The position numbers and the translations under genes were made by a program. 64,000 nucleotides of DNA from a virus. The first letter of the stretch is position 1, and every line of letters begins with the position of its first letter. The notes under the pieces were generated by a model, which searched no databases, had not been told where the DNA came from, and saw only the letters and a list, made by a program, of their open reading frames with translations. The stretch lies in UHGV virus genome UHGV-0371537. One strand, 5' to 3'. This document shows, piece after piece, positions 20,312 to 54,166 of the stretch.

Positions 20312-20380
20312 CACGGCAGTTCCTCAAGTAGTTCACTTTCACTTTAAATACCTTCGCATTCATTGCGGAGGTATTTTCTT

Positions 20381-21175
20381 ATGGCCATTCTAAAACTTGG
20401 CAACCGTGGCACTGAAGTGAAGGCACTTCAGGATAGCCTCAACAAAATCGGCTTCACCCTCGTCGCCGACGGCATCTTTGGTAAGGCAACAGAGAACGCT
20501 GTCAAGACTGTTCAGGCGGGTGCGGGGCTTGTCATCGACGGTATCGTGGGTCCAAAGACCTCCTATGCTATTCGCAACGCTGGAGACGCCCATCAAGATC
20601 ACCTGACCGAGGCTGACCTTATCGATGCGGCTAATCAGCTTGGAGTTGATCTCGCCTCTGTAAAGGCGGTCAACCAGGTGGAATCCCGTGGCACTGGCTT
20701 CACCAAGTCAGGTAAGATCAAGACATTGTTCGAACGCCACATCATGTACAAGAAGCTCATGGCGAAGTTCGGCCAGGCTCGGGCGAATGCTATAGGGCAG
20801 ATGTACCCGACGTTGGTCAGTCCTTCTGCAGGTGGGTACACGGGCGGCGATGCAGAACTGGATCGACTTCATGCGGCCATCAACATCGACGAGGATTGTG
20901 CGTACGAGAGTGCCTCATACGGTCTCTTCCAGATCATGGGCTTCAACTGCCAGGTCTGTGGGTATGCCAATGCCAAGGAGATGTTCAATGACTTCCTGAC
21001 AGGCGAACGTGCTCATCTGATGGCATTCGTGAAGTTCATCAAGGCCGATGCCAAGCTCTGGCAGGCTCTGAAGGACAAGAACTGGGCTGAGTTTGCGCGG
21101 CGCTATAATGGTCCGGCGTATGCCAAGAACCAGTACGACACGAAGCTCGCTGCTGCATACAAGAGTTTCAGTTAA
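20381..21175 (+). CDS. endolysin: peptidoglycan-binding domain plus N-acetylmuramidase-like domain
   Basis: N-terminus LKLGNRGTEVKALQDSLNKIGF...DGIFGKAT...GIVGPKT = PG_binding_1-like; C-terminus WAEFARRYNGPAYAKNQYDTKL typical of the DUF3380/muramidase family; ggagg RBS. Confidence 0.8.
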   Translation: MAILKLGNRGTEVKALQDSLNKIGFTLVADGIFGKATENAVKTVQAGAGLVIDGIVGPKTSYAIRNAGDAHQDHLTEADLIDAANQLGVDLASVKAVNQVESRGTGFTKSGKIKTLFERHIMYKKLMAKFGQARANAIGQMYPTLVSPSAGGYTGGDAELDRLHAAINIDEDCAYESASYGLFQIMGFNCQVCGYANAKEMFNDFLTGERAHLMAFVKFIKADAKLWQALKDKNWAEFARRYNGPAYAKNQYDTKLAAAYKSFS

Positions 21176-21204: not shown

Positions 21205-21279
21205 ATCCGCCCCTCGGGTATGCTGGGTGTGTCGCCTTAATTAAGGTTGATGACACCCCTGAGATATAGGAAGGTTCCC

Positions 21280-22910: not shown

Positions 22911-25199
22911 ATGAGCGAAATTAACGTCATTAAGCGGGACGGATCTTCTGTCCCCTTTGATATTGAGAAACTACACGCAGTCGTAGACCGCGCATGTGAC
23001 GGCCTGCCTGGTGTATCAATGTCAGAGGTGATCGCTGCATCGAAGATTCAGTTCACCGACAACATGAGAACAGATCGCATTCAGGATATCCTCATCCAGG
23101 CTGCGGCTTCGCTGATCTCTGTAGACAAACCCAATTACCAGTATGTGGCTGCTCGCCTGAAGTCATATGATCTGCGCAAGGCTGTCTATGGCCAGTACAA
23201 GCCGCCTCACCTGCTGGATATCTTCGTCAAGAACATCAAACAGCGTGTGTATGATCGTGAGTTCCTTGATCTCTACACGACCGAAGAGTTCAACGAGCTG
23301 AACGATGTTATCAACCACAAACGTGACAAGAACTTCACCTGGGCGGCCATGGGTCAGCTGACAGAGAAGTATCTGCTGCGTGACCGTTCCAAGAAGGACA
23401 GCAAGATCTTCTATGAAACCCCACAGGTCATGTACATGGGCATCGCCATGGCGTTGTTCTCCAACTGGGACAAAGACAGCCGCCTGGATATGGTGAAGAA
23501 GTTCTATGAATATGCCAGCACAGGCAAGTTCAGTCTTCCAACCCCGATTATGGCAGGCGTTCGTACTCCTACCCGTCAGTTCAGTTCCTGCGTGTTGATC
23601 AAAACTGGTGACACCCTGGACTCTATCAACGCAACAGCCAAGACCATCGTTGACTATGTGTCCAAACGTGCGGGTATCGGCTTCGACATCGGGGCGATAC
23701 GTGGGATTGGTAGTCCTATTCGCGGCGGAGAGATGGTTCACACAGGCCTGATCCCATTCATCAAGTATCTCACTGGGGCGCTCAAGTCTTGCTCCCAGGG
23801 CGGCATTCGTGGTGGTGCAGCAACAGCTTATATCCCTCTGTGGCATTACCAGTTCGATGACGTCGTTGTACTGAAGAATAACCGTGGCACTGAAGAAAAC
23901 CGCGAACGCCGTATCGACTACGGTATTCAGATCAACCGCGTGATGTTTGAGCGCCTGGTTGCCAAGCAGCCTCTGTATCTGTTCGACCCGAAAGACAACC
24001 GCGAAATGTACGAAGCATACTTCTCCGACGTCGACAAGTTCCGTACTCTGTATGAGAACATGATCAAGGCCGCCGATGCTGGTCTGGTACGTTCTAAGAA
24101 GCTGCAGGCTGAAGAAGTGTTCCAGATGCTGTTAGACCAGCGTTCAGACACAGGCCGCATCTACATCGCATTTGTCGATCACATGAATGAATACAGCCCA
24201 TTCAACCTCGACACGATCTACAGCTCCAACCTGTGTCTTGAAATCGCCCTGCCGACCCGTGAGTTTGAGCAGTACAACGATGAAAACGGGCGCGTGGCTC
24301 TGTGCACCCTGGCTTCCTTTAACCTGACGGCGTTCGAAGACCCGACTGAGATGGAAGACGTGGCGTTTGTGTTGGTGTCTGCGCTGGACATGCTGTTGGA
24401 ATATCAGGACTATCCGGCAATCCAGGCTCGTAAGGCTGTTGAGGATTATCGCCCTCTGGGTGTTGGTATCGTGAACGTGGCTCACTTCTTGGCCAAGAAC
24501 TTCACAGGCTATGGTTCTCCGGCTGGTCTTGAGATGTTGGATGCGTGGATGGCACACCTGCACTACTATCTGGTCAAGGCATCCAACCGTCTGGCGATGA
24601 AGTTCGGTGCATGCAAACGTGGAACCATCCACAATAATGGGCAGGTCACTGCCGATCTTCAGCCGCTTCCACTTGATATCCTGCCGAATGGTAAGAAACC
24701 GGAAGGCATGGCATACGGCCTGGATTGGGAAGAACTGAAGGATGATCTGAAGACCTATGGTATCCGCAATGCCACCCTGCTGGCAGTAGCCCCTACCGAA
24801 AGCTCCTCACAAGTCCTCAACGCAACGAACGGCATTGAGCCACCGAAGGGCTTGGTAAGCATTAAGGGCAGCAAGGACGGCACGTACAAGCAGGTCGTTC
24901 CGGATGTAGAGACCCTTGGACCGCTGTATGACCTGAAGTGGGACCTGGAATGCATCGAGTACCTGAAGACCGCTGCTGTCATCCAGCGCTGGGTTGACCA
25001 GTCCATCAGTACCAACACATGGTATGACCCAGAGAAGTACCCTGACGGCAAGATCCCTCGTGCTAAGATGATGCAGGATATCCTGTCGTTCTATATGTGG
25101 GGTGGTAAGACTCTGTATTACAACACGAACAAGGACGCCAAGGAAGACGAAGAGCTGAAACAGGCTGATGCCGTGGAATGTGAAAGTTGTATCGTGTAG
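22911..25199 (+). CDS. nrdA: ribonucleotide reductase class Ia alpha subunit
   Basis: 762 aa; N-terminal ATP-cone VIKRDGSSVPFDIEKL; active-site region NLCLEIALP; C-terminal CESC redox pair. Confidence 0.95.
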   Translation: MSEINVIKRDGSSVPFDIEKLHAVVDRACDGLPGVSMSEVIAASKIQFTDNMRTDRIQDILIQAAASLISVDKPNYQYVAARLKSYDLRKAVYGQYKPPHLLDIFVKNIKQRVYDREFLDLYTTEEFNELNDVINHKRDKNFTWAAMGQLTEKYLLRDRSKKDSKIFYETPQVMYMGIAMALFSNWDKDSRLDMVKKFYEYASTGKFSLPTPIMAGVRTPTRQFSSCVLIKTGDTLDSINATAKTIVDYVSKRAGIGFDIGAIRGIGSPIRGGEMVHTGLIPFIKYLTGALKSCSQGGIRGGAATAYIPLWHYQFDDVVVLKNNRGTEENRERRIDYGIQINRVMFERLVAKQPLYLFDPKDNREMYEAYFSDVDKFRTLYENMIKAADAGLVRSKKLQAEEVFQMLLDQRSDTGRIYIAFVDHMNEYSPFNLDTIYSSNLCLEIALPTREFEQYNDENGRVALCTLASFNLTAFEDPTEMEDVAFVLVSALDMLLEYQDYPAIQARKAVEDYRPLGVGIVNVAHFLAKNFTGYGSPAGLEMLDAWMAHLHYYLVKASNRLAMKFGACKRGTIHNNGQVTADLQPLPLDILPNGKKPEGMAYGLDWEELKDDLKTYGIRNATLLAVAPTESSSQVLNATNGIEPPKGLVSIKGSKDGTYKQVVPDVETLGPLYDLKWDLECIEYLKTAAVIQRWVDQSISTNTWYDPEKYPDGKIPRAKMMQDILSFYMWGGKTLYYNTNKDAKEDEELKQADAVECESCIV

Positions 25200-25270
25200 G
25201 TTAGGTCTAAACCTGCTACCGTTATATCATCAGGGGTGAGAGATCACCCCTTATTCATCAGGAAAGAAAC

Positions 25271-26374
25271 ATGAGCGAACAGAAACAATTTTCCGTATTC
25301 GACCCAAGCTCGGACAACACTGGCCTGCCGTTCTTCGGCGACCCAGTGAGCATCCAGCGCTATGACATCGTGGCTTGGCCATTCGTACAGAAGTGGTATG
25401 AGAAAGGCCTCAGCCAGTTCTGGCGTCCGGAAGAAGTAGACATCACCAAGGACAAGGCCGACTATGCCACCCTCACACCTGCTGAAAAGCGCATCTATGA
25501 GAGCAACCTGAAGCGCCAGACCATGCTGGATTCTATCCAGGGCGCGGCTCCGTTCGAGGCGTTTGGTCCATGGGCGTCTACCCCTGAAATGCAGTTCGCC
25601 GTCCTTGAGTGGACGCGCCAGGAAGCCATTCACTCCCTGTCGTACACCCACATCCTGCGAAACACTGTGAACGATCCTGGTATCGTGTTTGACCACGTGT
25701 TGGACGTTGCAGAGATCGTGGATTGTGCTCATCAGATTAGTACTCACTATGACGATATGGTTCGTTACAGTGGCATGCGTATGGCTGGTCGCGCCTTTAC
25801 CCGTGAAGACATGATGAATGCCAAACGTGCATTCTGGCGTGCTCTGTTTGCTGCCAACACACTGGAAGGCATCCGCTTCTACGTGTCCTTTGCATGCTCT
25901 TGGGCGTTCACGCAGTTCCAGAAGAAGATGGAAGGTAATGCTAAAATCATTCGCCAGATCGCCCGTGATGAGCAAGATCACCTGATCCTGACTCAGACGC
26001 TGCTGAACCGTCTGCCTGGCATGGACCCTGACTTCGAAATCATCCGTGAGGAACTGCGTGGTGAGATGACCCAGATGTTCTTGGACGTGGGTAATCAGGA
26101 GAAGCAATGGGCTGACTATCTGTTCCAGGACGGCTCCATGCTTGGCCTGAACGCGAAGATCCTACACCATATGGTAGACTGGTTGCTCACCCACCGCATG
26201 GGCGCTATCGGACACCCATATCCTGGGGAACCACGTAAGGAATGCCCAGTGCCATGGATCAACGAGTGGCTAAATAATAAGACAATGCAGTACGCGTTGC
26301 AGGAAGCTGAAGCTCCTGATTATCTTATGGGTGTACTGACTGGTTCAGTATCCGACGGCCTCAAATTCGCTTAA
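25271..26374 (+). CDS. nrdB: ribonucleotide reductase class Ia beta subunit
   Basis: 367 aa; ferritin-like di-iron motifs (EAIHSLSY, EGIRFYVSF); adjacent to nrdA. Confidence 0.9.
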   Translation: MSEQKQFSVFDPSSDNTGLPFFGDPVSIQRYDIVAWPFVQKWYEKGLSQFWRPEEVDITKDKADYATLTPAEKRIYESNLKRQTMLDSIQGAAPFEAFGPWASTPEMQFAVLEWTRQEAIHSLSYTHILRNTVNDPGIVFDHVLDVAEIVDCAHQISTHYDDMVRYSGMRMAGRAFTREDMMNAKRAFWRALFAANTLEGIRFYVSFACSWAFTQFQKKMEGNAKIIRQIARDEQDHLILTQTLLNRLPGMDPDFEIIREELRGEMTQMFLDVGNQEKQWADYLFQDGSMLGLNAKILHHMVDWLLTHRMGAIGHPYPGEPRKECPVPWINEWLNNKTMQYALQEAEAPDYLMGVLTGSVSDGLKFA

Positions 26375-26383
26375 AGGTGAGAA

Positions 26384-26608
26384 ATGATTACGATCTATTC
26401 CAAACAAGGTTGCGCTCAGTGTGTTACAGCTGAAAATCTGTGTAAGATGAAAGGGCTGGAACACAAGATCCTCAAGCTGGACAAAGACTACCAGCTGGAA
26501 GAACTTCAGAAGTTGACGGGTAAGCAGCGCATGTCTATGCCTGTAATCGTCCTCGCTGACCAGACCGTGACCGACGTTACTGGACTCGCCGCCAGCCTCA
26601 AGCGCTGA
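26384..26608 (+). CDS. glutaredoxin-like redoxin (NrdC/NrdH-like)
   Basis: 74 aa; CAQC active-site motif near N-terminus; immediately downstream of nrdB. Confidence 0.7.
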   Translation: MITIYSKQGCAQCVTAENLCKMKGLEHKILKLDKDYQLEELQKLTGKQRMSMPVIVLADQTVTDVTGLAASLKR

Positions 26609-26616
26609 TCTGTCAA

Positions 26617-26640
26617 AGCCCCTCAATGAGGGGCTTTACT
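26617..26640 (+). terminator. rho-independent terminator after nrdC-like gene
   Basis: agcccctc-aatg-gaggggct then tttactttt. Confidence 0.55.
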
Positions 26641-26663
26641 TTTGAAACACCCTCCCCTATACT
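26635..26663 (+). promoter_or_regulatory. early-type promoter TTTACT-N17-TATACT
   Basis: Overlaps 3' arm of the nrdC terminator hairpin; paralogous to 12894-12922. Confidence 0.5.
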
Positions 26664-26713
26664 TCCCAATAATTCATTGGCATTCGCCACAAATTGAAAG
26701 CGGGAACTATATC

Positions 26714-27175
26714 ATGACAAACAAAGTGCTCACCAACCCACTGCACAACTTCGGTTACATTCAGCTTCCTCTGGTGATTGATACCCTATACGCTGATGAC
26801 AAAGAGGAGATCTGTTGGTCTCCAACCGCTCTGATTGAACGCGAAATCTTCAAGTCTGTTGTTGATGTTATGTTCCGTATCGGTCGCAATGCACCTCTGG
26901 TCTACCTCGGCAAAGCAACTGAACTGAAGACAAGCCACAACGAACGCTTCCTGCGCATTGATACTACCGGGTGCTCCCAGCAAGACTTCAACACACTGCG
27001 CAATTATGTTCTGGTCAACCGCCCGGTATCCCAGCATCGTCCTTACCTGACGTCAATGCACATAGACAGTTTCATCACTGACGTACACCTGCAGGCTGAA
27101 ACCCTCCATGAAGAGGAAACAGGCCGAGCTATCGACACTGTCTTAAATATGGTTGTGATCACCCTCGCGGAGTAG
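26714..27175 (+). CDS. hypothetical protein
   Basis: ATG 26714 in context ggaactatatcATG behind promoter cassette. Confidence 0.5.
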   Translation: MTNKVLTNPLHNFGYIQLPLVIDTLYADDKEEICWSPTALIEREIFKSVVDVMFRIGRNAPLVYLGKATELKTSHNERFLRIDTTGCSQQDFNTLRNYVLVNRPVSQHRPYLTSMHIDSFITDVHLQAETLHEEETGRAIDTVLNMVVITLAE

Positions 27176-27180
27176 CCATC

Positions 27181-27570
27181 ATGAACTATCCTCTTGACGC
27201 GAAATTTATTCTTCCAAGGAAGGAACTAGACACCTTCCGGGTTCTGCATCAACTTTTGGCCGCCGGGGAAACAATCCCGCTATACGAAGGTGGAAAGAAG
27301 GTAGGAAAAGGAATTTCGTGTGCGATCGATGACAGTGAATACTGGGCATTTGATTTCAATCGCACCGAGAATTTCAAGCCAAGGGATTCATCAATGATGA
27401 TGAGGTTCATGATTGACAAACCAATTGACCTACAGAAGTATGATCTGTTCTTGGACGCGATCCCATACGAATTCAGGGAGGAGGGTCTGAAGTACAGATT
27501 TGCGTTGTTGGTGTGCTTCAAAATGACTATCGTCCTGAAGCCTATGTTCACACCGCCCAACGCAAGTTAA
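27181..27570 (+). CDS. hypothetical protein
   Basis: ORF track. Confidence 0.45.
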   Translation: MNYPLDAKFILPRKELDTFRVLHQLLAAGETIPLYEGGKKVGKGISCAIDDSEYWAFDFNRTENFKPRDSSMMMRFMIDKPIDLQKYDLFLDAIPYEFREEGLKYRFALLVCFKMTIVLKPMFTPPNAS

Positions 27571-27951
27571 TCAGTTCGTCCTTTTCAACCACACGGTGTC
27601 TGTTATTGGATCTGGGTTGTTGACCACATAGAAAGTGATGGTCACGCCCAGAGAGTGGTAATCTTCCGACAGACTGACCGTGACTTCCTCCACCTCGGCT
27701 CGTGGTTCATACAGAGCAATAGCATCTTCAACTTTGTTCTTCACATCTACCTGAATCGTCGGGTTCGTGTTCTCCCCGAGTAGATTGTAAAGCCCCGCTC
27801 CGATCCCAGGGTATGTCGGCCAATCTCCAACCGACGACATGACGATATTCCTCACAGATTGTAGGACAGCGTAAATCCCAGATTTCATGGTGACATCTTT
27901 GGTCACAGGGTGCATGCCGAACTTCAGATCGACATCTTTGTATTCTTTCAT
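27571..27951 (-). CDS. 25: baseplate wedge protein gp25-like
   Basis: 126 aa; size and YEPR-containing central segment as in T4 gp25; adjacent to gp5-like gene; gagaggag RBS. Confidence 0.65.
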   Translation of the reverse strand: MKEYKDVDLKFGMHPVTKDVTMKSGIYAVLQSVRNIVMSSVGDWPTYPGIGAGLYNLLGENTNPTIQVDVKNKVEDAIALYEPRAEVEEVTVSLSEDYHSLGVTITFYVVNNPDPITDTVWLKRTN

Positions 27952-28025
27952 TACAACACTCCTCTCAGGGTGCCTAGAAGGAGCAGAGAGGAGCGTTGCC
28001 CCTCTGCCACTAAACTTATACCAAC

Positions 28026-29636
28026 TTACTCTTCGGTGCCGAAATTACCACCATTGTCTTTTAATTCTGCCTTGATATCAATCTCACCTGGACCCGTAGG
28101 GGATGCAGGGGTTGCACCTGACAGAGAAGAGGCGCGACCAGCACCTTCCGCATATTTGATGTTGCCATTAATCGTCTGGGCCACAGTCAGTTTGTCGGCG
28201 ATGATCTCTGTTGCCAGAATCTTAGGAACCTTCAACGTCCCGCCGACCTCCAGAGTCTCACAGATAATACGCAAAATATTCTGCGCCTGCAACTCAGCCA
28301 GGTTGCTGAATTTCATCAACGCTGTGCCAGCAACAACATTAGAATAGTTGTTGGAATGCAAATGATAGACTTCACCAGTCTTGCGCTGCACTTCCGTTCC
28401 TTTGATCGTCAGGTTGTGATCGCCGCCAACATAATAACGTTTGTTGAACATCGTCAGATCATAATGATCTTTCACAGACTTGTTCACAACGTCACCGTCT
28501 GGCAGCATTTGTTTGTACGACCCGGACATGTGCATCCAGTGAAGACGTTCGCCCCCCGGTGTGTCATCCACTTCCATGATGTGGCCAGCCCGAGAAGCCA
28601 TGACGTTGTTGTACGGATACTTGGACCCACCCGCAGCCGGAACCATAGTTTCGCCAGTGTTGTCAATGTCCTGAACACGGCCTGTTGGTGCTGGCGTTGC
28701 CTGCTCTTTCGGAGTCCGATCTGGAATTGGTTCTGACCATTTACCGTTCTGTTGGGCGGGGGCAGCCGCAGCTGTGTTTGCAGGTCCAGGCCAGCGATAG
28801 CCCAAGACCGAAGAACGGCTGAAACGACTGACCTTCACTGAATCGGATTGGTTGCCCCCGATACACCAGACATAGTTGGCATCGAACTTCTGCACGAACG
28901 CCACATGGCCGAATGTCGGGTTGTTACCGCGCCGGAAGACCACGATAGCGCCATACTGAGGTGCCGACAATGGACTACCCCACGTCAGGTAAGATCGGGC
29001 AAGAGCGGAGCGTGTGGAAGTGTATCCGGCCTTTAACATAACCCAACCAACAAACGCAGCGCACCAGGATACTTCATCTTCAGATGCACCAAGCGAGGTT
29101 GTCTTGTGATACTCAACGATGCGGGGGTTGTTGTTGAACTTGCCAGCATATTCTTTGACGCCAAGTTCACCACGGGCGATAGTCATCCATTTTTCAGGAT
29201 CATACCCACCCACAGGAGGCTGAGGGTCTGGCTGAGGTTCGTCTTCTTGCTTTACAGGTACATCAGTGACAGCATTGTACGCCTGACGTTCAACAGACAT
29301 GACGACCTGCCCCAGAGCCAGGGGGTTTGTGTCCGCCCCATCAGTCGGGGTCGCACCCGGCCAGGTCCATGCGATTCTGAGATTCTGGTATGCGTCATCC
29401 AGCGCGAACCCCATGACTTCCGTGCCGACAATGATACCCGTAGGGGACCAACCTAAACCTGCCGAGGAGGCATTCGACGCAGGCATCATCACTTTTGCCC
29501 ATGGGAGTTTATCCGTAGGCAAGAGGACGGGATCATCTGTATGTATGCCGTGTATGCGAACGGCCACGCGCCCGTTTTCATCAGGATCATTGACGTCTTC
29601 AACGGTGCCATAAAACCATCTCATTTTGTCTAACAT
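28026..29636 (-). CDS. 5: baseplate central spike/hub protein gp5-like carrying a CHAP peptidase domain
   Basis: N-terminal OB-like RWFYGTVEDVNDPDENGRVAVRIHG; central Cys/His pair SWCAAFVGW...GHVAFV (CHAP-like); C-terminal repetitive region. Confidence 0.65.
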   Translation of the reverse strand: MLDKMRWFYGTVEDVNDPDENGRVAVRIHGIHTDDPVLLPTDKLPWAKVMMPASNASSAGLGWSPTGIIVGTEVMGFALDDAYQNLRIAWTWPGATPTDGADTNPLALGQVVMSVERQAYNAVTDVPVKQEDEPQPDPQPPVGGYDPEKWMTIARGELGVKEYAGKFNNNPRIVEYHKTTSLGASEDEVSWCAAFVGWVMLKAGYTSTRSALARSYLTWGSPLSAPQYGAIVVFRRGNNPTFGHVAFVQKFDANYVWCIGGNQSDSVKVSRFSRSSVLGYRWPGPANTAAAAPAQQNGKWSEPIPDRTPKEQATPAPTGRVQDIDNTGETMVPAAGGSKYPYNNVMASRAGHIMEVDDTPGGERLHWMHMSGSYKQMLPDGDVVNKSVKDHYDLTMFNKRYYVGGDHNLTIKGTEVQRKTGEVYHLHSNNYSNVVAGTALMKFSNLAELQAQNILRIICETLEVGGTLKVPKILATEIIADKLTVAQTINGNIKYAEGAGRASSLSGATPASPTGPGEIDIKAELKDNGGNFGTEE

Positions 29637-29670
29637 ATTGAGTTCCGGTTGTCAAACAAGGATTTGAAGG

Positions 29671-29678
29671 TATTTATG
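29671..29678 (-). promoter_or_regulatory. late-promoter-like box CATAAATA upstream of gp5-like gene
   Basis: One mismatch to TATAAATA; 35 nt upstream of ATG 29636. Confidence 0.3.
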
Positions 29679-29972
29679 CGCAGCGGATTTTGCCTTATAT
29701 ACTATAGGAAGCTCTGCTTCCGTTCAGTTATTGTCTTATTCGATCTTATTCGCTTCGCTCATCACACCGCCTTATGCAGGCAGCACCATTCCAATGCCAT
29801 GGAGGCATAAGGGCGAGGCAATAACTGTACACCTCAGAACATCCCTTGAAAAATGGTTTTTAATTGACAATCTGATTCAAAATAGACGATCCCCAACAAT
29901 GACTCAGGAACAAGCCCATTATAACAATTTCAGGTAAAGAGAGCGCGTGTTAACCTGTTTTGCAGTTAAGCC

Positions 29973-29997
29973 AATAAAAATCCCGCCGAAGCGGGAT
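29973..29997 (-). terminator. rho-independent terminator on minus strand
   Basis: atcccgc-cgaa-gcgggat; on minus strand the hairpin is followed by TTTTTATT. Confidence 0.6.
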
Positions 29998-30145
29998 TAT
30001 GGTTTCTTAGACAACCTGACCTTGAGGGCTTCAGTTAACAAGTCAAGGTGCCATGGCATCGATTCATTGATTTCAAATATGTTATAGCCGTGTAACTTCA
30101 ATTCATCACACATCACGAAATAGGATAATAAATCAGTTTCAAACA

Positions 30146-30952
30146 TTAAATGAAAATTTCATTAATGCTATTGAACTCAATAGGATGCTCTTTACCACAT
30201 TTAGGGCATTTGATTTTGTTCTTGTAGTGGATGCGAGGAATTTTATGGAAGAAGTTCTTCGTAATATCCTCGATAACATCCGATTCAAGATTGTCTTTTA
30301 CCCATTCAATGAAAGCGTCTTTGACACGACGACGCTCAATAGATTCTTCGGGCGTGATGCCCGGTTCATCCGGGTTCTCTACACGCCATACTTGTCCATC
30401 GTCATCATACAGACAATCAATGAAAGTCGCCAGCATTTCTTCAATGCTAGATGATTCAGACAGAGCCGTGGCATCGGCAAAGGAGGGCTGGCGCATCTTC
30501 AGATGATAACCACCCGGCAGGTCAAAGATTTCTTTAAACCCTTCCTTCGCTACACACTTGACATTCAGTAGAGGGATAGGCAGCACCAGTTCCTGCTTAC
30601 AAGGAACCATGGTTTTCTTCTCGATTCCTTCCCCGACGTCTGTCGTTTCTTCGATTTGGTTGTTGCATTCATAGCGGATTTTCATCAATTCGCCAATAGC
30701 GATGCTACGCATGCGGATGAACACTTCTTCAACAACACCGATCGGCAGTTTGTTAAACGGTGCCCCGGCTTCAACACAATCTGCAAACAGGCTTTCCATA
30801 ATCGCAGCACGCTCTTCAACCGGAGTCTGAGGATCCGCGACCTGTAGCATGAGAGTTTGTTGCCCGGCAGTGAAAGCGCGATATCTGATGACACTCGGCC
30901 AAAAATCGCTTTTGAATGTCTTTTCTGTTCTGGGCAATGAAGGTAATTTCAT
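30146..30952 (-). CDS. late protein with C-terminal zinc ribbon (baseplate-associated?)
   Basis: ATG 30952 with GGAG RBS; TATAAATA late-promoter box at 30981-30988 (minus); C-terminal CPKCGKEH. Confidence 0.5.
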   Translation of the reverse strand: MKLPSLPRTEKTFKSDFWPSVIRYRAFTAGQQTLMLQVADPQTPVEERAAIMESLFADCVEAGAPFNKLPIGVVEEVFIRMRSIAIGELMKIRYECNNQIEETTDVGEGIEKKTMVPCKQELVLPIPLLNVKCVAKEGFKEIFDLPGGYHLKMRQPSFADATALSESSSIEEMLATFIDCLYDDDGQVWRVENPDEPGITPEESIERRRVKDAFIEWVKDNLESDVIEDITKNFFHKIPRIHYKNKIKCPKCGKEHPIEFNSINEIFI

Positions 30953-30980
30953 AATGTATCTCCATGGTATATTGTAAGGA

Positions 30981-30988
30981 TATTTATA
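30981..30988 (-). promoter_or_regulatory. T4-type late promoter box TATAAATA
   Basis: Plus-strand tatttata 30981-30988; 29 nt upstream of minus-strand ATG 30952. Confidence 0.5.
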
Positions 30989-31001
30989 ACGAGGAATGAA
31001 A

Positions 31002-31526
31002 ATGCGCGGATTCTGTTTTAGCGAAATTGGCAAAGAACTGTCGATACAATATCCAGACCCCAATACAGACTTCTTTATTTTCTTGTCTGACTATGCCCAG
31101 AAAGAGAATATTAGTCACATTGCGATGAAGTACGAAGATTATAAATTTTGTCGATTGGGTGTTAAGGATCTCTTGCGCTTCGGACTGTGTGTCATTATCG
31201 TAGATCAAACCTATAGCCCCATTGATGATGAAGAAGTCCTTCCTGTTTTCGTACATCGCAATATCAACACTCTGGATACACATTTTCCTGGGTGTGTGGT
31301 CGTTGGTGAGCTGGTTCCTTATTTCCACCGTTTGCGGAAGTTGGAACAAATTAAAAGTTATTTTCAAGATGGCGTGGGTCAATATAAGATGAACGTCCTC
31401 GGTAGTGGATGGAAAGTGTTGTCAACAGCTGGTGGCACCGACTATATCAAAATGCGGGTCTATGGTTATGACGTGGACCGCGATTATGAACTGGAGAAAA
31501 GTAATGCAAAAAGAAAACGCCGTTGA
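31002..31526 (+). CDS. hypothetical protein
   Basis: Second ATG chosen for RBS spacing (gagga); divergent from 30146-30952. Confidence 0.45.
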   Translation: MRGFCFSEIGKELSIQYPDPNTDFFIFLSDYAQKENISHIAMKYEDYKFCRLGVKDLLRFGLCVIIVDQTYSPIDDEEVLPVFVHRNINTLDTHFPGCVVVGELVPYFHRLRKLEQIKSYFQDGVGQYKMNVLGSGWKVLSTAGGTDYIKMRVYGYDVDRDYELEKSNAKRKRR

Positions 31527-31995
31527 ACGTACTCCTATTGAGGAAGTACAACAATATGTGTTGGATCTGTTGAAACACACCGTATCCGACGCCGACGGTA
31601 AAGTACCGGATGAGTTTGTCGGTGCATTCGAAGAAGTCGCTCACGATACCGAAGGTGTTCCTCTGATCCAGACGATTGGTGGCCTGTTAATGTTTGATGA
31701 AAAAGCACTGGCTGATGGCGCTGTGCTGTACTCTGCAAACATTGGGGTTGATGGTGAGTCATTGTCTATCGAAGTGTGTAACCTCGCCAAGTACCTGCTG
31801 CAATGCGGCTATGATCTGCGTGTCGTTACAGCTCATTACATCGATCCTCAGGGGCAGATCTCATATGGCGATGAAGGTCGCAAAGTAAAACGTCATATCG
31901 AAACGTCGTTCATTTTGCAGAACATTCAGCAAATGCAGAAGAATTTGGACCACCCGGCGTTGATCCTGCCTGAAGGCAAAATCATCACCCGTTAA
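31504..31995 (+). CDS. hypothetical protein
   Basis: Internal ATG 31504 preceded by ggag. Confidence 0.45.
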   Translation: MQKENAVERTPIEEVQQYVLDLLKHTVSDADGKVPDEFVGAFEEVAHDTEGVPLIQTIGGLLMFDEKALADGAVLYSANIGVDGESLSIEVCNLAKYLLQCGYDLRVVTAHYIDPQGQISYGDEGRKVKRHIETSFILQNIQQMQKNLDHPALILPEGKIITR

Positions 31996-32046
31996 TCCGG
32001 CGTAAATAGCCCATACACCAATGAAACTTCGTTATGGGCTATTTAC

Positions 32047-32637
32047 ATGAAATATTGCGGAATCGACTACTCATATGGTTGTCCATCCCTGTGCTTCTGG
32101 GATGACAAAGACCCTCTTGATTTTGACCACCTGCGCTTCTACGCATATTACACTGTGGAGAAGTACTGCTCTCAAATCCGTCAGAACATCCTTATCATGA
32201 AACAGCCGAAGTGGGAGACTCCAGAAGAGCGCTTCTACAACATCTGTAAATGGGCTGAGGCTGTCCTGTTGACCGAGAAACCGGATGTGATCACTCTTGA
32301 GGGGTATGCTATGGGCAACTCCAAGAACTCCAACAACATCTGCCAGACAGCAGAGAACACTTCTCTATTGAAGCAAGTTCTGCGTCGCCATAACCTGGAG
32401 TTTCAGATTGTGACACCTTCTCATGTTAAGAAGATGTTTACAGACAAAGGCAACGCCGATAAGATCGCCATGATCGCCCACTTCGAAACCCTGTTCAATG
32501 TTAATATGCGCGGTATAATGGATATGTTGGAAGTTAAGGATCCCAAGCCTATCGATGACCTCGTGGATTCGTTTGCAATCATGTCTTGCGGTTCTTACTT
32601 CATTGAGAATAATCCAGACTTCAACAGAGGTGTATGA
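32047..32637 (+). CDS. RuvC-like (RNase H-fold) nuclease, candidate Holliday junction resolvase
   Basis: N-terminal MKYCGIDYSYG (GID catalytic Asp), ITLEGY, DDLVDSFAIM resemble RuvC/YqgF catalytic arrangement. Confidence 0.45.
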   Translation: MKYCGIDYSYGCPSLCFWDDKDPLDFDHLRFYAYYTVEKYCSQIRQNILIMKQPKWETPEERFYNICKWAEAVLLTEKPDVITLEGYAMGNSKNSNNICQTAENTSLLKQVLRRHNLEFQIVTPSHVKKMFTDKGNADKIAMIAHFETLFNVNMRGIMDMLEVKDPKPIDDLVDSFAIMSCGSYFIENNPDFNRGV

Positions 32638-32948
32638 TGGTCGATTACTGGTTGTTGGCGAATTTCTTCACATTCGCTTTGTTGTTGGTGTTTGTACTGA
32701 TATGGGTGAAGTCATTGTTGACTCTCGTCCATGCGTACATGTATCAGATCAACTTCTATACGTTGTCTCCCCACCGGGACACAAACGTCCGTGCGGATCA
32801 ACAGGCCGAAGCCATCATTTCATACCAGTTCATTCACATTCGCGATAAAATGATCAAGCGAGTTGTGTTTTCTACAGCAGTGTTACTGGCTATCATTATG
32901 GTTCGTTTTGTGCTGACAACTGTGGGGGTGTTCCATGCCGCTGTATGA
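32634..32948 (+). CDS. small membrane protein
   Basis: Hydrophobic segments LLANFFTFALLLVFVLIW and VVFSTAVLLAIIMV. Confidence 0.4.
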   Translation: MMVDYWLLANFFTFALLLVFVLIWVKSLLTLVHAYMYQINFYTLSPHRDTNVRADQQAEAIISYQFIHIRDKMIKRVVFSTAVLLAIIMVRFVLTTVGVFHAAV

Positions 32949-33180
32949 TTATCAGTGCGGGGAATGCGGGAATGCGATGACGCTGCGGAAATCAATTGCA
33001 GACCGCCATGAACCAGAATCTAACCCTTGCGCTGAGTGCGGAGGGGAGATTAAAATGGTGGTGGGCGCTCCTAAGATCGTGTCTGGGGTTAAGGGACCAC
33101 AATCTGCACCGGATGGTTTCAAGGACGTTCTGCGCACGATTAAGAAAGGCTCTGGTAAGGGGAACACAATCGATGTCTGA
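32935..33180 (+). CDS. FmdB-family zinc-ribbon protein
   Basis: MPLYDYQCGECG...CAECGG: two CxxC pairs with the MP(L/I)YEY start typical of the family. Confidence 0.5.
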   Translation: MPLYDYQCGECGNAMTLRKSIADRHEPESNPCAECGGEIKMVVGAPKIVSGVKGPQSAPDGFKDVLRTIKKGSGKGNTIDV

Positions 33181-33418
33181 TGATAAATCACCCACACAGG
33201 TGCTGACTGCAGACTCCTTCTCAGAAGCCGTTCTGCTCCGCGCCGCCCGTACCAGAGAAACTATCCTTGAGACACTCGTGGCTGTCTGTGAAGAAAACGA
33301 CATAGATGAAACGAAGGTCAGAAAAATGATCACAGCACCTCTACTGTCCCGACTAACAGCAGAGTGCTCCGATGCGCGTCTTATCAAAGACGTTCTGAAG
33401 TCGAAGAAATTAGTGTAG
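33173..33418 (+). CDS. hypothetical protein
   Basis: Internal ATG 33173 of ORF 32996-33418. Confidence 0.4.
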   Translation: MSDDKSPTQVLTADSFSEAVLLRAARTRETILETLVAVCEENDIDETKVRKMITAPLLSRLTAECSDARLIKDVLKSKKLV

Positions 33419-33425
33419 GTCTATT

Positions 33426-33665
33426 ATGAGCAAAGAATCAATTTACAGTGCAATGAAAGCCCAAGAGTTTCTGCCAGGCTCAATGCGCTGGCGTGTGGGT
33501 AGTCTGAACGAACATGCCGATCAGACGGATCGTATTCGTTATGTCACCCCTGATGGTCGCTCATATGTTGTTGAGTACCACACCCACGTAGAGAGCAAGA
33601 AGACGTTCTCCGACGTGTACGATATTATTGAAATTGACCCAGCATTACAAATGCTTAAAGGTTAA
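33426..33665 (+). CDS. hypothetical protein
   Basis: ORF track. Confidence 0.4.
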   Translation: MSKESIYSAMKAQEFLPGSMRWRVGSLNEHADQTDRIRYVTPDGRSYVVEYHTHVESKKTFSDVYDIIEIDPALQMLKG

Positions 33666-33762
33666 TTCAGTGCAGTAACGGGGTATAATTACCCCGCTTT
33701 AAAGTAAATCGATAATACATGCAACAGAATAGCCCTGAGGGGCGGAAACAGAGGAATTAGAA

Positions 33763-34800
33763 ATGGGTAATTTATTTGATCGTCTGAAGCAGTCCCGTGG
33801 TCAACAGGCCGACGCAATGCAGGCGCGTCTGGCACAGCAAGGCCAGAAGTCCGGCTTCCAGAAGGATCCTCGCATCTGGAAATGGACTTGGAATAAGGAA
33901 GGTATTTCTCAGAACACCATCCGCTTCCTGCCAGTTCCGCTGGTAGACGTCAAGGCACAAGAAGAAGGAACGATCGATAAAGATCAGATCCTGACTCCTT
34001 GCGCCATGATCATGAAGCATCAGTTCCAGGGACCTGGTGGTTGGTACATCGAAAACTCACCTCAGACGTTCGGCAACGACGACCCGGTGCGTGACCATGA
34101 CCGTCCGCTGTGGGCGCAACAGAAAGAAACGAACGACGAAAAGCTGAAGGACGTGCTGAAGAAACGTCTGCCAGACACCAAATACTACGCCAACATCCTG
34201 GTGATCGAAGATGTCAACGTACCGGAAAACAACGGCAAGGTCTTCCTGCTGGAGTTTGGTAACGCCATCAAGAAAATCTTGGACCAGGCGCAGAATCCTA
34301 AGTTCCCGACCGACCCTAAATTCGACCCGTTCGATCTGTGGGAAGGTGCCAACCTGAACCTCAAGCTCTTCGGTGAGCAGAAGAAGTTCGGCAACTGGGA
34401 AGGTCTGGTGGCTAACTTCTCCAACGTCAGCTGGGCGGCTCCGGCTCCGCTGAGCGAAGACGAAGCCTACATGGAAGACGTGTGGTCTCGTGAACATAGC
34501 CTGTTTGAATTCTTCAACCCGGCGAATTTCAAGAGCTACGATGACCTGGAGAAACGCCTGCGCAAAGTGCTGGCGATTCCTGATGGTCAGCCTCTGGTTG
34601 AAGGTGGTGCGGCTACTATGGCGCATGCCCCTACGAACCAGGCTCCAGCACAACAGCCTGTTAAACAACAGCCAACTGCTCAAGACAGCCTGAACCAACA
34701 GCAATCACAACCTTCGCAGTCTGCTGTTAATCATCAGACGCCGGATCCTAAAGCAACAGGGTCTATCGAAGACTTTGAGCAGTTCCTCAAAGATAACTGA
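33763..34800 (+). CDS. 32: single-stranded DNA-binding protein gp32
   Basis: IRFLP, YYANILVIEDVNVPENNGKVF, LWEGANLNLK match T4 gp32 (VIRFLP, YWANILVV...PENEGKVF, PWEGANF); acidic/Gln-rich C-terminus. Confidence 0.9.
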   Translation: MGNLFDRLKQSRGQQADAMQARLAQQGQKSGFQKDPRIWKWTWNKEGISQNTIRFLPVPLVDVKAQEEGTIDKDQILTPCAMIMKHQFQGPGGWYIENSPQTFGNDDPVRDHDRPLWAQQKETNDEKLKDVLKKRLPDTKYYANILVIEDVNVPENNGKVFLLEFGNAIKKILDQAQNPKFPTDPKFDPFDLWEGANLNLKLFGEQKKFGNWEGLVANFSNVSWAAPAPLSEDEAYMEDVWSREHSLFEFFNPANFKSYDDLEKRLRKVLAIPDGQPLVEGGAATMAHAPTNQAPAQQPVKQQPTAQDSLNQQQSQPSQSAVNHQTPDPKATGSIEDFEQFLKDN

Positions 34801-52777: not shown

Positions 52778-54166
52778 TTAAACTTTCTGAGACTGCCCTT
52801 TTTCAATCGGCTTGGGAGTCGTTGTTGAAGCGGTGGTCTGATTTGTTTGTGGTGGTAGCACCTGCTCCAACATACTGTCTTTGGCGATTTCAGCGATGCA
52901 CTGATAATCTTTGGTCAGTCTAGATATCTTGTGACGAACCTTGGTCACGATATAATGACCTGTCGATAGCTTACTTAACTCTGCCAGGTTTTCATTCTTC
53001 TTGGGGCGATTAGACTGGTCTTCGATATAGAATACACGACCAACATTCAGGCGGTTGTCTCCCACTAACAACAGACGCATCGCAGTACTGCCAAGGCTGA
53101 AGTTTATCACCCGGCGCGCATAATCAATCTGCTCTGCGCCGTCCGGTTGGGCTTCAATATAACGAACGTTTTGGCGATCAAATTCGTCAGAGAACATTGG
53201 ATATGGGTCCAGGTGGGCTGTCTCTGCAAACCACTCAGTGTAGATGCGCTGTGTCGGCGTTACTGTCTTGGTCTCAAAATCATAGACGCGTTCGTTTACC
53301 GCCAAGATGTCGCGGTAGTTGGCCATGTACTGGTCACGCGCCAGCTTCTTCTCTGCCTTGATGATCGTGCGCATGAAGCGCTCAGAGTTGAAGTTGTTAT
53401 CCTGCATGAGTGGGGCGTCTTGAGGATCACGGAATAATTTGTTCTGTTGAGCCAGCTCTTGCTTCTCTTCGGCCGTCAATGACTGGCTGCCCTGATTGAA
53501 CAGAGTGGTCAGGCTCTTGAAGTGGTAGCCGTTGAAGTCTTCATAGAACACAAATGGCATGAACAACTCATCATAGGAACGGCTGGCCATGTAGTCGATA
53601 GAACGTAGCACAGGCCAGAGAGGGGTTGCGAATCTCTCTTGAATACCATATGTTGGGTCTATGTCTTCGAACTTCGTGCGCGACTCCAGCTGATTGAAGA
53701 TGGTGAGCGCCATCTCGGAGTAGGAACCACTCAGCCCAATAGAACAACGGATCATGCTGTCCTTGTAGGCATCAGTTGTCACGAGGTGAAGCCAGAATGC
53801 CTTCTTGGACGAACTGTTGGATTCATCGGCCACGCGCCCTACCCGGCTGACTCGCAGGGAGAGAGTAGTGTACTCGGAAGCTGCTGGGCTCTTGAACGAC
53901 ACCACAACTTCTTCCCCACCCAGGATAGGCATTGTGTCCAGGATATCCCAACCTTCTTTGATCAGAATGTTGGCTGTCAGAGAAGGAGAGGCCTGACCCT
54001 CAAGACCCAGATCCTGGAAGACGTTGAATTCTTCAAACAGCGCCGTCAGGTCATACGGCGTGGGTGTGCCGCCCTGTGGGGTGTGAGGAAGGATCGCCAT
54101 GTACTTCAGGTCAAATGTTGTCGACGGTGTTACGATACCGTCTTGGGTCTCTCTGTTTTCGATCAT
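52778..54166 (-). CDS. baseplate hub subunit, gp27-like (tentative)
   Basis: 462 aa; weak segment similarity to T4 gp27 as I recall it (FVFYEDFNGYHFKSL vs FVFVWQDIMGVNMMDY); context in hub block. Confidence 0.4.
   Translation of the reverse strand: MIENRETQDGIVTPSTTFDLKYMAILPHTPQGGTPTPYDLTALFEEFNVFQDLGLEGQASPSLTANILIKEGWDILDTMPILGGEEVVVSFKSPAASEYTTLSLRVSRVGRVADESNSSSKKAFWLHLVTTDAYKDSMIRCSIGLSGSYSEMALTIFNQLESRTKFEDIDPTYGIQERFATPLWPVLRSIDYMASRSYDELFMPFVFYEDFNGYHFKSLTTLFNQGSQSLTAEEKQELAQQNKLFRDPQDAPLMQDNNFNSERFMRTIIKAEKKLARDQYMANYRDILAVNERVYDFETKTVTPTQRIYTEWFAETAHLDPYPMFSDEFDRQNVRYIEAQPDGAEQIDYARRVINFSLGSTAMRLLLVGDNRLNVGRVFYIEDQSNRPKKNENLAELSKLSTGHYIVTKVRHKISRLTKDYQCIAEIAKDSMLEQVLPPQTNQTTASTTTPKPIEKGQSQKV

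What the first reader, a model, noticed from the sequence alone, without database searches (positions are those of the whole stretch)
28026..29636. gp5-like spike protein carries a CHAP domain instead of a lysozyme
The protein begins with a gp5-like OB domain and ends in a repetitive region, but the central enzymatic part has a Cys/His pair in a CHAP/NlpC-P60-like context (SWCAAFVGW ... GHVAFV) rather than the T4-lysozyme fold of T4 gp5. This implies peptidoglycan peptide-bond cleavage during penetration.
Basis: partly seen in the sequence, partly recalled or inferred. Interest (0 to 1): 0.5.

Follow-up and report, generated by a model that had tools for sequence, protein, structure and literature searches.

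The report
Phage tail spike carrying a cysteine peptidase

Summary
ORF 28026-29636 (-), 536 aa, has a gp5-type OB domain (residues 1-97). It also has a central TIGR02594/CHAP domain (150-282; NCBIfam E=1.5e-38, Pfam CHAP above its cut-off) and a segment homologous to the start of the T4 gp5C beta-helix (338-~495). No lysozyme domain is detectable. T2/T4 gp5 aligns only with the two ends.

The window comes from an Ackermannviridae phage and also encodes a separate muramidase endolysin. The LIMEstone1 orthologue was found in virions by mass spectrometry.

The best explanation is a central spike that cuts peptidoglycan peptide stems or amide bonds during entry. Enzyme activity and bond specificity are inferred, not shown.

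This is not new. At least 282 phage genomes carry the same architecture, Pfam and NCBIfam annotate it, and some GenBank records already say "cell wall-associated hydrolase". The papers I could search still call it "tail lysozyme", which is a misnomer. Interest is low to moderate.

The parts
28026..29636 (-). gp5-like central spike gene (536 aa plus stop)
   Evidence: [quoted passage not shown] 94-97% aa identity to Limestonevirus gp5. LIMEstone1 orthologue ORF61 detected in virions (PMC3296691).
29346..29636 (-). N-terminal OB-fold domain (residues 1-97)
   Evidence: Pfam Gp5_OB E=5e-13. 40% identity to T2 gp5 residues 6-102. Five beta-strands in the AF2 model, pLDDT about 76-86.
29190..29345 (-). 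Linker 1 (residues 98-149), Pro/Asp/Gln-rich, with one short predicted helix
   Evidence: pLDDT below 50 for residues 95-139. Composition.
28791..29189 (-). TIGR02594 / CHAP (NlpC/P60 superfamily) cysteine peptidase domain (residues 150-282)
29061..29063 (-). Codon of Cys192, the predicted nucleophile
   Evidence: Invariant in 71 of 71 homologues. Lies at the N-terminus of a helix in the model. Coordinates.
28905..28907 (-). Codon of His244, the predicted general base
   Evidence: Invariant in 71 of 71 homologues. Lies at the start of a beta-strand in the model.
28848..28853 (-). Codons of Asn262-Gln263 (GGNQ motif), candidate third catalytic residue
   Evidence: Invariant in 71 of 71 homologues. 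The spacing His+18 equals that of the phage 812 CHAP triad Cys699-His759-Glu777 (PMC13433997). Its role is inferred, not tested.
28626..28790 (-). Linker 2 (residues 283-337), Ala/Pro/Thr-rich; positional equivalent of the T4 gp5 linker that holds the maturation cleavage site
   Evidence: pLDDT below 50 for residues 291-340. Composition. T4 background from PMC3004832. Cleavage here was not tested.
28152..28625 (-). gp5C-like beta-helix region (residues 338-495)
   Evidence: Aligns to T4 gp5 385-487, E about 7e-14, and to T2 gp5 386-536. Beta-strands 343-418 in the model. Gly/Asn at every 8th residue from 405 to 453.
28029..28151 (-). C-terminal tail (residues 496-536), Gly/Ala/Ser-rich, conserved in the family, function unknown
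   Evidence: Consensus of alignment A1. pLDDT below 50. dS is only 0.065 against LIMEstone1, compared with about 0.9 for the rest of the gene.
29671..29678 (-). CATAAATA, a T4-type late-promoter-like box 35-42 nt upstream of the ATG
   Evidence: Sequence. Invariant in six Ackermannviridae genera. LIMEstone1 annotates a late promoter at the same place.
27571..27951 (-). Context: gp25 baseplate wedge gene directly downstream
   Evidence: Pfam GPW_gp25; phrog_261.
30146..30952 (-). Context: gp26 baseplate hub gene upstream. Likely ATG start at 30952, giving 268 aa as in LIMEstone1
   Evidence: Pfam T4_baseplate E=2e-43. LIMEstone1 ORF059 is 807 nt.
52778..54166 (-). Context: candidate gp27 hub partner
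   Evidence: Syntenic with LIMEstone1 ORF026 'putative gp27', a virion protein. phrog_350 'tail protein'. No Pfam or PDB sequence match, so this is not confirmed.
20363..21175 (+). Context: the phage's separate endolysin (PG_binding_1 + Muramidase PF11860)
   Evidence: Pfam E=2e-59.

Best explanation
The gene encodes the central spike (T4 gp5 equivalent) of an Ackermannviridae myovirus.

[quoted passage not shown] The OB domain docks to the hub. The C-terminal part forms the trimeric beta-helix needle that pierces the outer membrane when the sheath contracts. The middle domain, held on two flexible linkers about 50 residues long, reaches the peptidoglycan.

That middle domain is not a lysozyme. 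It is a TIGR02594-type papain-like cysteine hydrolase of the NlpC/P60-CHAP superfamily with Cys192, His244 and probably Asn262. It most likely cuts the peptide part of peptidoglycan, either a stem or cross-link peptide bond or the MurNAc-L-Ala amide. This would locally open the wall for the tail tube. Host lysis at the end of infection is left to a separate muramidase endolysin.

Shown here: domain identities, fold, residue invariance, purifying selection, gene context, and the absence of a lysozyme domain. Shown by others for the orthologue: presence in virions. Inferred: trimeric assembly, catalytic activity, which bond is cut, timing, and any masking of the active site before contraction.
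For: Domain assignment:
- Domain hits.
- T4/T2 gp5 aligns only at both ends.
- T2 gp5, run as a control, has Phage_lysozyme and the query does not.

Fold and catalytic residues:
- AF2 domain model pLDDT 89.
- C192, H244, N262 and Q263 are invariant in 71 of 71 homologues. The Cys lies at a helix N-terminus and the His on a strand.

Selection:
- dN/dS is 0.02 against LIMEstone1, and the CHAP domain has the lowest dN in all five genus comparisons.

The same domain elsewhere:
- It is fused to PG_binding_1, LysM, GH108 and SLT domains.
- It serves as an endolysin next to holin and spanin genes (PMC5418858).
- It appears in T6SS effectors (PMC13055248).

Context:
- LIMEstone1 ORF61 (96% identical) was detected in the virion proteome, as was the Vi01-like homologue.
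- The late-promoter box is invariant across genera.
- A separate muramidase endolysin lies in the window.
- The T4 mechanism is described in PMC3004832.
Against: - No enzymatic data exist for this protein. I found none for any TIGR02594 member in the searchable literature.
- The full-length monomer model is poor for the C-terminal third (pLDDT below 50 from about residue 420).
- Pfam Gp5_C repeats are absent, and sequence periodicity is not significant.
- The gp27 partner is supported only by synteny and annotation.
- No gp5.4/PAAR tip protein was found in the window.
Confidence: 0.78

Rival explanations
1. The architecture is the same, but the domain is specifically an N-acetylmuramoyl-L-alanine amidase. 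It would strip peptide stems from the glycan, as some CHAP domains do, rather than act as an endopeptidase within stems or cross-links.
For: The Pfam hit is to CHAP, a family that includes amidases. The His-to-third-residue spacing of +18 is CHAP-like. Amidase-type T6SS effectors (Tae3, Tse1, Tae2, Tae4) appear among the structural neighbours.
Confidence: 0.25
2. The domain is catalytically silent and is kept for a structural or peptidoglycan-binding role. It would resemble the inactive CHAP-fold 'clip' domain of the phage 812 weld protein.
For: Inactive CHAP folds exist in baseplates (PMC13433997). T4 gp5 lysozyme activity is itself largely masked in the assembled trimer.
Against: The inactive 812 domain has lost Cys/His/Glu. 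Here Cys, His and the GGNQ motif are invariant in 71 of 71 sequences, including free-standing lysins. The domain is also the slowest-evolving part of the protein.
Confidence: 0.07
3. The protein is not a virion spike. It would be a lysis enzyme or other intracellular hydrolase that merely shares domains with gp5.
For: [quoted passage not shown]
Against: The domain is fused between a gp5 OB domain and a gp5C-like region. The gene lies between gp26 and gp25 behind a late-promoter box. The orthologue is found in purified virions. A separate PG_binding_1+Muramidase endolysin is encoded in the same window.
Confidence: 0.03

Closest known systems
Bacteriophage T4 gp5 (tail-associated lysozyme, PDB 1K28/1PDL)
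   Same: [quoted passage not shown] In both, an enzymatic cassette sits at the same place between two long linkers. Both are late structural genes of the baseplate core.
   Different: The cassette is a TIGR02594/NlpC-P60-CHAP cysteine hydrolase instead of a GH24 lysozyme. The helix region is shorter and has no detectable Gp5_C repeats. The gene sits between genes 26 and 25 rather than between 53 and 5.1/6. No gp5.4 homologue was found in the window.
[quoted passage not shown]
   Same: This is the same protein family: 66-97% aa identity, the same three-part architecture, the same neighbours and the same late-promoter box.
   Different: Only sequence divergence. The best nucleotide match is about 86%, so the window is a genome not held in the phage collection. 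The Nezavisimistyvirus and Miltonvirus versions are 70-80 aa longer.
[quoted passage not shown]
   Different: Those domains sit on the gp27-like hub, not on the gp5-like spike, and they target thick Gram-positive walls. Here the carrier is the spike and the hosts are Gram-negative Enterobacterales.
Short OB-CHAP proteins of Delftia phage PhiW-14 (unannotated ORF), Agrobacterium phage OLIVR5 gp214 and related metagenomic phages
   Same: They share the Gp5_OB + CHAP/TIGR02594 N-terminal two-domain module and lie next to gp25.
   Different: They lack the beta-helix, which is encoded by a separate gene that also carries a GH19-like domain (PhiW-14 gene 82; the 806-aa gene in L005). The CHAP domains are only about 40-44% identical to this one.
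T6SS peptidoglycan amidase effectors (Tse1/Tae families) and the VgrG-associated TIGR02594 effector of Stenotrophomonas
   Same: They belong to the same enzyme superfamily (the Stenotrophomonas effector carries the TIGR02594 domain itself) and are delivered into a Gram-negative periplasm by a homologous contractile machine.
   Different: They are separate cargo proteins with immunity partners, not a domain embedded in the spike polypeptide.

Membership tests
T4 gp5-type central spike (cell-puncturing device) | N-terminal gp5 OB-fold domain | tested here: met
   Pfam Gp5_OB 49.9 bits against a cut-off of 25. BLASTP to T2 gp5 E=9e-17. Five-stranded barrel in the AF2 model.
T4 gp5-type central spike (cell-puncturing device) | C-terminal domain homologous to the gp5C triple-stranded beta-helix | tested here: met
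   Residues 338-440 match T4 385-487, E about 7e-14, and the match extends to residue 495. Beta-strands are predicted. Gly/Asn recurs with period 8. Caveats: no Pfam Gp5_C hit, and trimer formation is not testable here.
T4 gp5-type central spike (cell-puncturing device) | Central GH24 (T4-lysozyme-like) domain | tested here: not met
   No Phage_lysozyme hit at E<=1, while T2 gp5 hits it. No alignment to T4 gp5 residues 103-384.
T4 gp5-type central spike (cell-puncturing device) | Structural component of the virion baseplate, complexed with a gp27-like hub | tested here: inconclusive
   The orthologue and the gp27 candidate were detected in LIMEstone1 virions. The window's gp27 candidate (52778-54166) has no Pfam or PDB sequence match and only phrog 'tail protein'.
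T4 gp5-type central spike (cell-puncturing device) | Maturation cleavage in the linker before the beta-helix | not testable with these tools
   Linker 283-337 is present and disordered. Virion-protein mass spectrometry or N-terminal sequencing is needed.
CHAP / NlpC-P60 superfamily (TIGR02594 subfamily) | HMM score above curated cut-offs | tested here: met
   TIGR02594 132.1 bits against 70.55, over the full model. PF05257 41.8 bits against 26.
CHAP / NlpC-P60 superfamily (TIGR02594 subfamily) | Conserved catalytic Cys and His | tested here: met
   C192 and H244 are invariant in 71 of 71 aligned homologues.
CHAP / NlpC-P60 superfamily (TIGR02594 subfamily) | Papain-like alpha+beta fold with the Cys at a helix N-terminus and the His on a beta-strand | tested here: met
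CHAP / NlpC-P60 superfamily (TIGR02594 subfamily) | Third polar triad residue correctly placed | tested here: inconclusive
   N262 and Q263 are invariant, and the spacing of +18 matches the phage 812 triad. Model coordinates could not be inspected.
CHAP / NlpC-P60 superfamily (TIGR02594 subfamily) | Peptidoglycan hydrolase activity and bond specificity | not testable with these tools
   Supported only by context: fusions to PG-binding, SLT and GH108 domains and use as an endolysin or T6SS effector.

The most novel reading that the evidence does not exclude
The gp5-type spike may be a general carrier for interchangeable wall-degrading cassettes, and Ackermannviridae may have fixed a cysteine-peptidase-only version.

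Cassettes seen here on gp5-type OB proteins:
- GH24 lysozyme in T4.
- CHAP alone in Ackermannviridae.
- CHAP with a separate GH19-like beta-helix gene in PhiW-14-like phages.
- SLT + CHAP, Amidase_2 + S74, VgrG3-like, or no enzyme at all in metagenomic relatives.

If the domain is an active endopeptidase needed for entry, it would be a rare documented peptidase-type virion lysin in phages of Gram-negative bacteria. A 2017 review lists only phi6 P5 as demonstrated. It might also reflect adaptation to host peptidoglycan that resists lysozymes.
Probability: 0.5. Interest if true: 0.45.

Novelty: new member of a known kind. Interest (0 to 1): 0.3.

Why it matters
- The family-wide label 'tail lysozyme' is chemically wrong for Ackermannviridae, a family widely proposed for biocontrol. 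The correct description is a spike-borne cysteine peptidase or amidase.
- Peptidase-type virion lysins are barely documented for phages of Gram-negative bacteria (PMC5380687). This conserved, compact domain of about 135 aa is therefore a reasonable target for biochemistry and enzybiotic work.
- The case illustrates cassette swapping at a fixed position in contractile-machine spikes.
- It does not open a new biological question. The architecture is already visible in Pfam and NCBIfam annotation of hundreds of genomes.

Tried and rejected
- **Lysozyme in the centre:** rejected. There is no Pfam hit and no alignment to T4 gp5 residues 103-384.
- **Full-length AF2 monomer:** only the OB and CHAP parts are usable, and the C-terminal third has low confidence. 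I therefore modelled the domain alone.
- **Profile search of the domain alignment against PDB sequences:** it found no NlpC/P60 or CHAP entry. It hit only GH108 and gp5 parts carried in by the full-length rows. No TIGR02594 member appears to have a solved structure detectable by sequence.
- **Sequence autocorrelation for repeats in residues 338-536:** not significant.
- **tblastn of T2 gp5.4 (PAAR) and gp5.1 against the window:** nothing found.
- **PDB and Pfam searches for the gp27 candidate:** nothing found.
- **NJ tree of CHAP domains, asking whether all OB-CHAP spikes share one acquisition:** unresolved. There are no support values, and the bacterial proteins P0024 and P0029 are interspersed.
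- **Rfam on the whole window and on the conserved upstream region:** no family found.
- **'Intergenic region more conserved than genes':** weakened. Nucleotide identity to LIMEstone1 is mosaic (65-100%) in coding regions too.
- **Seven literature searches:** none returned a paper that discusses the CHAP/NlpC-P60 nature of Ackermannviridae gp5. Subscription-only papers are not covered.

Full report
**What is there**

The minus-strand ORF 28026-29636 encodes 536 aa.

Domain searches give these hits:
- Pfam Gp5_OB, residues 39-97, E=5e-13.
- Pfam CHAP PF05257, residues 187-262, 41.8 bits against a gathering score of 26.
- NCBIfam TIGR02594 across its whole model, residues 150-282, 132 bits against 70.55, E=1.5e-38.

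No Phage_lysozyme match appears even at E<=1. T2 gp5 run through the same search gives Gp5_OB + Phage_lysozyme + Gp5_C + Gp5_trimer_C.

Against solved structures and against T2 gp5 directly, only the two ends align. Residues 2-94 match T4 5-102, and residues 338-440 (extending to 495) match T4 385-487 (536). So the roughly 240 residues between the OB domain and the helix occupy the position that the lysozyme and its linkers hold in T4.

**Fold of the central domain**

The full-length AlphaFold monomer was only partly confident (mean pLDDT 60). The OB and central domains scored about 75-90, and the linkers and the last 120 residues were below 50. Even so, its Foldseek hits were T4 gp5 for the ends and NlpC/P60 or CHAP hydrolases for the middle.

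I then modelled residues 140-295 alone with a 71-sequence alignment. That model has pLDDT 89 and pTM 0.87.

- CHAP endolysins follow: LysIME-EF1 12.7, PlyGRCS 11.8, LysGH15 10.7.
- The diffocin baseplate Hub-Hydrolase scores 12.7, the phage 812 hub CHAP domain 7.9, and the T6SS effectors Tae3 and Tse1 score 10.2 and 8.6.

Foldseek agrees.

In the 71-sequence alignment W191, C192, A193, F195, H244, G260, G261, N262 and Q263 are invariant. The Cys opens a helix and the His sits on a strand, which is the papain-like arrangement. The His-to-Asn spacing of +18 equals that of the experimentally supported Cys699-His759-Glu777 triad of the phage 812 CHAP domain (PMC13433997). I could not inspect model coordinates, so the third residue remains a proposal.

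**Is the domain functional?**

Codon comparisons with orthologues from five genera show strong purifying selection. Overall dN/dS is 0.02 against LIMEstone1 at dS of about 0.9. The CHAP domain is the most conserved segment in every comparison: 80-98% aa identity, against 61-95% for the OB domain and 60-96% for the helix region.

Elsewhere the same domain is fused to PG_binding_1, LysM, GH108/PG_binding_3 and SLT domains. It serves as the endolysin next to holin and spanin genes in Pseudomonas phage ZC01 (PMC5418858). It also occurs in a VgrG-linked T6SS effector (PMC13055248). All of this points to peptidoglycan as the substrate.

I found no biochemical characterisation of any TIGR02594 member.

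**Where the window comes from and the gene's context**

The region is about 86% identical at the nucleotide level to Enterobacter phage EspM4VN, Dickeya Limestonevirus phages and Shigella phage Ag3. The protein is up to 97% identical to Limestonevirus gp5. The window is therefore an Ackermannviridae (Aglimvirinae-like) genome that the phage collection does not hold.

The gene order is gp26, a 49-aa ORF, a terminator, about 340 nt of non-coding sequence, gp5, then gp25. This matches LIMEstone1, CBA120, a Taipeivirus, phiMAM1 and Bue1. A CATAAATA box 35-42 nt upstream of the ATG is invariant in all six and coincides with a late promoter annotated in LIMEstone1.

LIMEstone1 ORF61 (96% identical) was recovered from purified virions by mass spectrometry with 2 peptides, as were its gp27, gp26, gp25, gp48 and gp54 homologues (PMC3296691). 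A Vi01-like proteome also lists the 'tail associated lysozyme'.

The window holds other baseplate and tail genes: the gp54, gp48, gp53 and tape-measure homologues and the gp27 candidate. It also holds a separate endolysin at 20363-21175, which is PG_binding_1 + Muramidase PF11860. The phage therefore uses a glycosidase for lysis and carries a cysteine hydrolase on its spike.

**Mechanism**

In T4, gp5 forms a (gp27-gp5*-gp5C)3 complex. The beta-helix pierces the outer membrane. The three lysozyme domains lie beside the helix on long linkers and are about 90% inhibited until the helix dissociates. They then digest peptidoglycan so the tube can reach the inner membrane (PMC3004832).

The window protein keeps the two docking and piercing modules and the two long linkers, so I infer the same choreography with a different chemistry. 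The difference would be hydrolysis of the peptide moiety of peptidoglycan. The closest structural neighbours suggest gamma-D-Glu-mDAP or mDAP-D-Ala cleavage. MurNAc-L-Ala amidase activity is the main alternative.

Assembly state, activity, specificity, masking and linker processing are all inferred.

**C-terminal part**

Residues 338-495 are homologous to the start of gp5C, and Gly or Asn recurs every eighth residue for seven octads (405-453). The combined Gly+Asn frequency in this region is about 0.16, so this pattern is unlikely by chance (about 3e-4 over the possible start positions, my own estimate).

Overall sequence self-similarity at offset 8 does not beat shuffles, unlike T2 gp5C, and Pfam Gp5_C is not detected. 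The last 41 residues are a conserved Gly/Ala/Ser-rich tail of unknown role. No gp5.4/PAAR homologue was found in the window.

**How new is it?**

It is not new as an architecture. At least 282 phage records carry a full-length homologue. All 23 clusters of 57-94% identity in the protein database have precomputed PF05257 + PF06714, and one is named 'TIGR02594 family protein'. Several GenBank records call it 'cell wall-associated hydrolase' or cite COG0791.

The searchable papers on the family keep the T4-derived name 'tail lysozyme' and do not discuss the domain. None of my seven literature searches found such a discussion.

A 2017 review states that endopeptidase virion lysins are mostly known from Gram-positive phages. 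It names phi6 P5 as the only one demonstrated in a phage of Gram-negative hosts (PMC5380687).

Structural precedents for NlpC/P60 or CHAP domains in the axial core exist in phage 812 and diffocin. There the domain sits on the hub protein and the targets are Gram-positive.

**Wider pattern**

A search of 1.84 billion representative proteins collapses Ackermannviridae gp5 into one 50% cluster but shows many other arrangements:
- Gp5_OB + SLT + CHAP + helix (P0121, P0124).
- Gp5_OB + helix repeat + C-terminal CHAP (P0126).
- Gp5_OB + helix + Amidase_2 + Peptidase_S74 (P0125).
- Gp5_OB + CHAP only (P0128 and others).

Other arrangements seen:
- Gp5_OB + VgrG3-like C (P0027) and an enzyme-less form (P0030).
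- In Delftia phage PhiW-14, an unannotated 328-aa ORF encodes OB + CHAP. It lies immediately before annotated gene 82, which carries a GH19-like domain plus the beta-helix.
- A related JGI contig (L005) and Agrobacterium phage OLIVR5 show the same short OB-CHAP protein.

The enzymatic position of gp5-type spikes therefore behaves as an exchangeable cassette. A rough NJ tree could not decide whether CHAP was captured once or several times.

**Verdict**

What is there is the standard Ackermannviridae central spike, whose 'lysozyme' label is a misnomer. It is a new orthologue of a known, database-annotated but experimentally uncharacterised kind. Interest is low to moderate (0.3).

Noticed in passing
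window 29637-29990 (read on the - strand), between the terminator after the 49-aa ORF and the gp5 ATG: There is about 340 nt of non-coding DNA here. The 120 nt around the gp5 start and promoter (29604-29723) are 100% identical to LIMEstone1, although the region averages about 86%. A hairpin (GGAAGC-AGA-GCTTCC, 29705-29719) keeps pairing through compensatory changes in a Taipeivirus and in Bue1, and is followed by TATAAT/TATAGT. An inverted repeat CGCCCTTATGC...GCATAAGGCG and a TGTTATAAT extended -10-like box are also present. No Rfam family matches. It could be a small RNA, a 5' leader or a regulatory site. The covariation evidence is weak, resting on 6 sequences.
   Followed up: partly
L004 2480-3466 (Delftia phage PhiW-14, GQ357915.1 70152-71138): An unannotated 328-aa ORF encodes Gp5_OB + CHAP/TIGR02594. 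It lies directly upstream of, and abuts, annotated gene 82 (GH19-like domain + gp5C helix). The PhiW-14 spike thus appears split into two genes and would carry two different wall-degrading domains. JGI contig L005 has the same layout (OB-CHAP, gp25, then an 806-aa GH19-like protein).
   Followed up: partly
L006 2779-3495 (Vibrio phage ICP1_2006_C) and about 43-kb siphophage records: [quoted passage not shown] They lie among non-structural or lysis genes, so they are probably endolysins. The label seems to have spread from the CHAP domain of Vi01-type gp5.
   Followed up: partly
window 20363-21175 (+): The phage's own endolysin is here: PG_binding_1 + Muramidase (PF11860), next to PhoH (21247-22122).
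   Followed up: yes
window 22911-25270 compared with L001/LIMEstone1: LIMEstone1 nrdA is 3303 nt against 2289 nt here. LIMEstone1 also has an extra 294-nt ORF067 between nrdA and nrdB that the window lacks (alignment gap at about 25263). This probably reflects differences in mobile-element content (intein or homing endonuclease).
   Followed up: no
window 24800-34000 compared with LIMEstone1: Nucleotide identity is mosaic, 65-100% per 60 nt. Near-identical blocks lie at 27324-27683 and 32600-32659. The last 41 codons of gp5 have dS=0.065 against about 0.9 for the rest of the gene. This suggests recombination patches or local nucleotide-level constraint.
   Followed up: partly
P0121, P0124, P0125, P0126, P0027 (metagenomic proteins): Several gp5-type spikes carry other or multiple enzymatic cassettes. 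These are SLT + CHAP, Amidase_2 + Peptidase_S74 chaperone, a C-terminal CHAP placed after the helix repeats, and a T6SS VgrG3-like C-terminal domain.
   Followed up: partly
window 30146-31063 (-): The mechanical ORF for gp26 starts at a TTG (305 aa). The ATG at 30952 gives 268 aa, which is exactly the annotated length in LIMEstone1, CBA120 and the Taipeivirus.
   Followed up: partly
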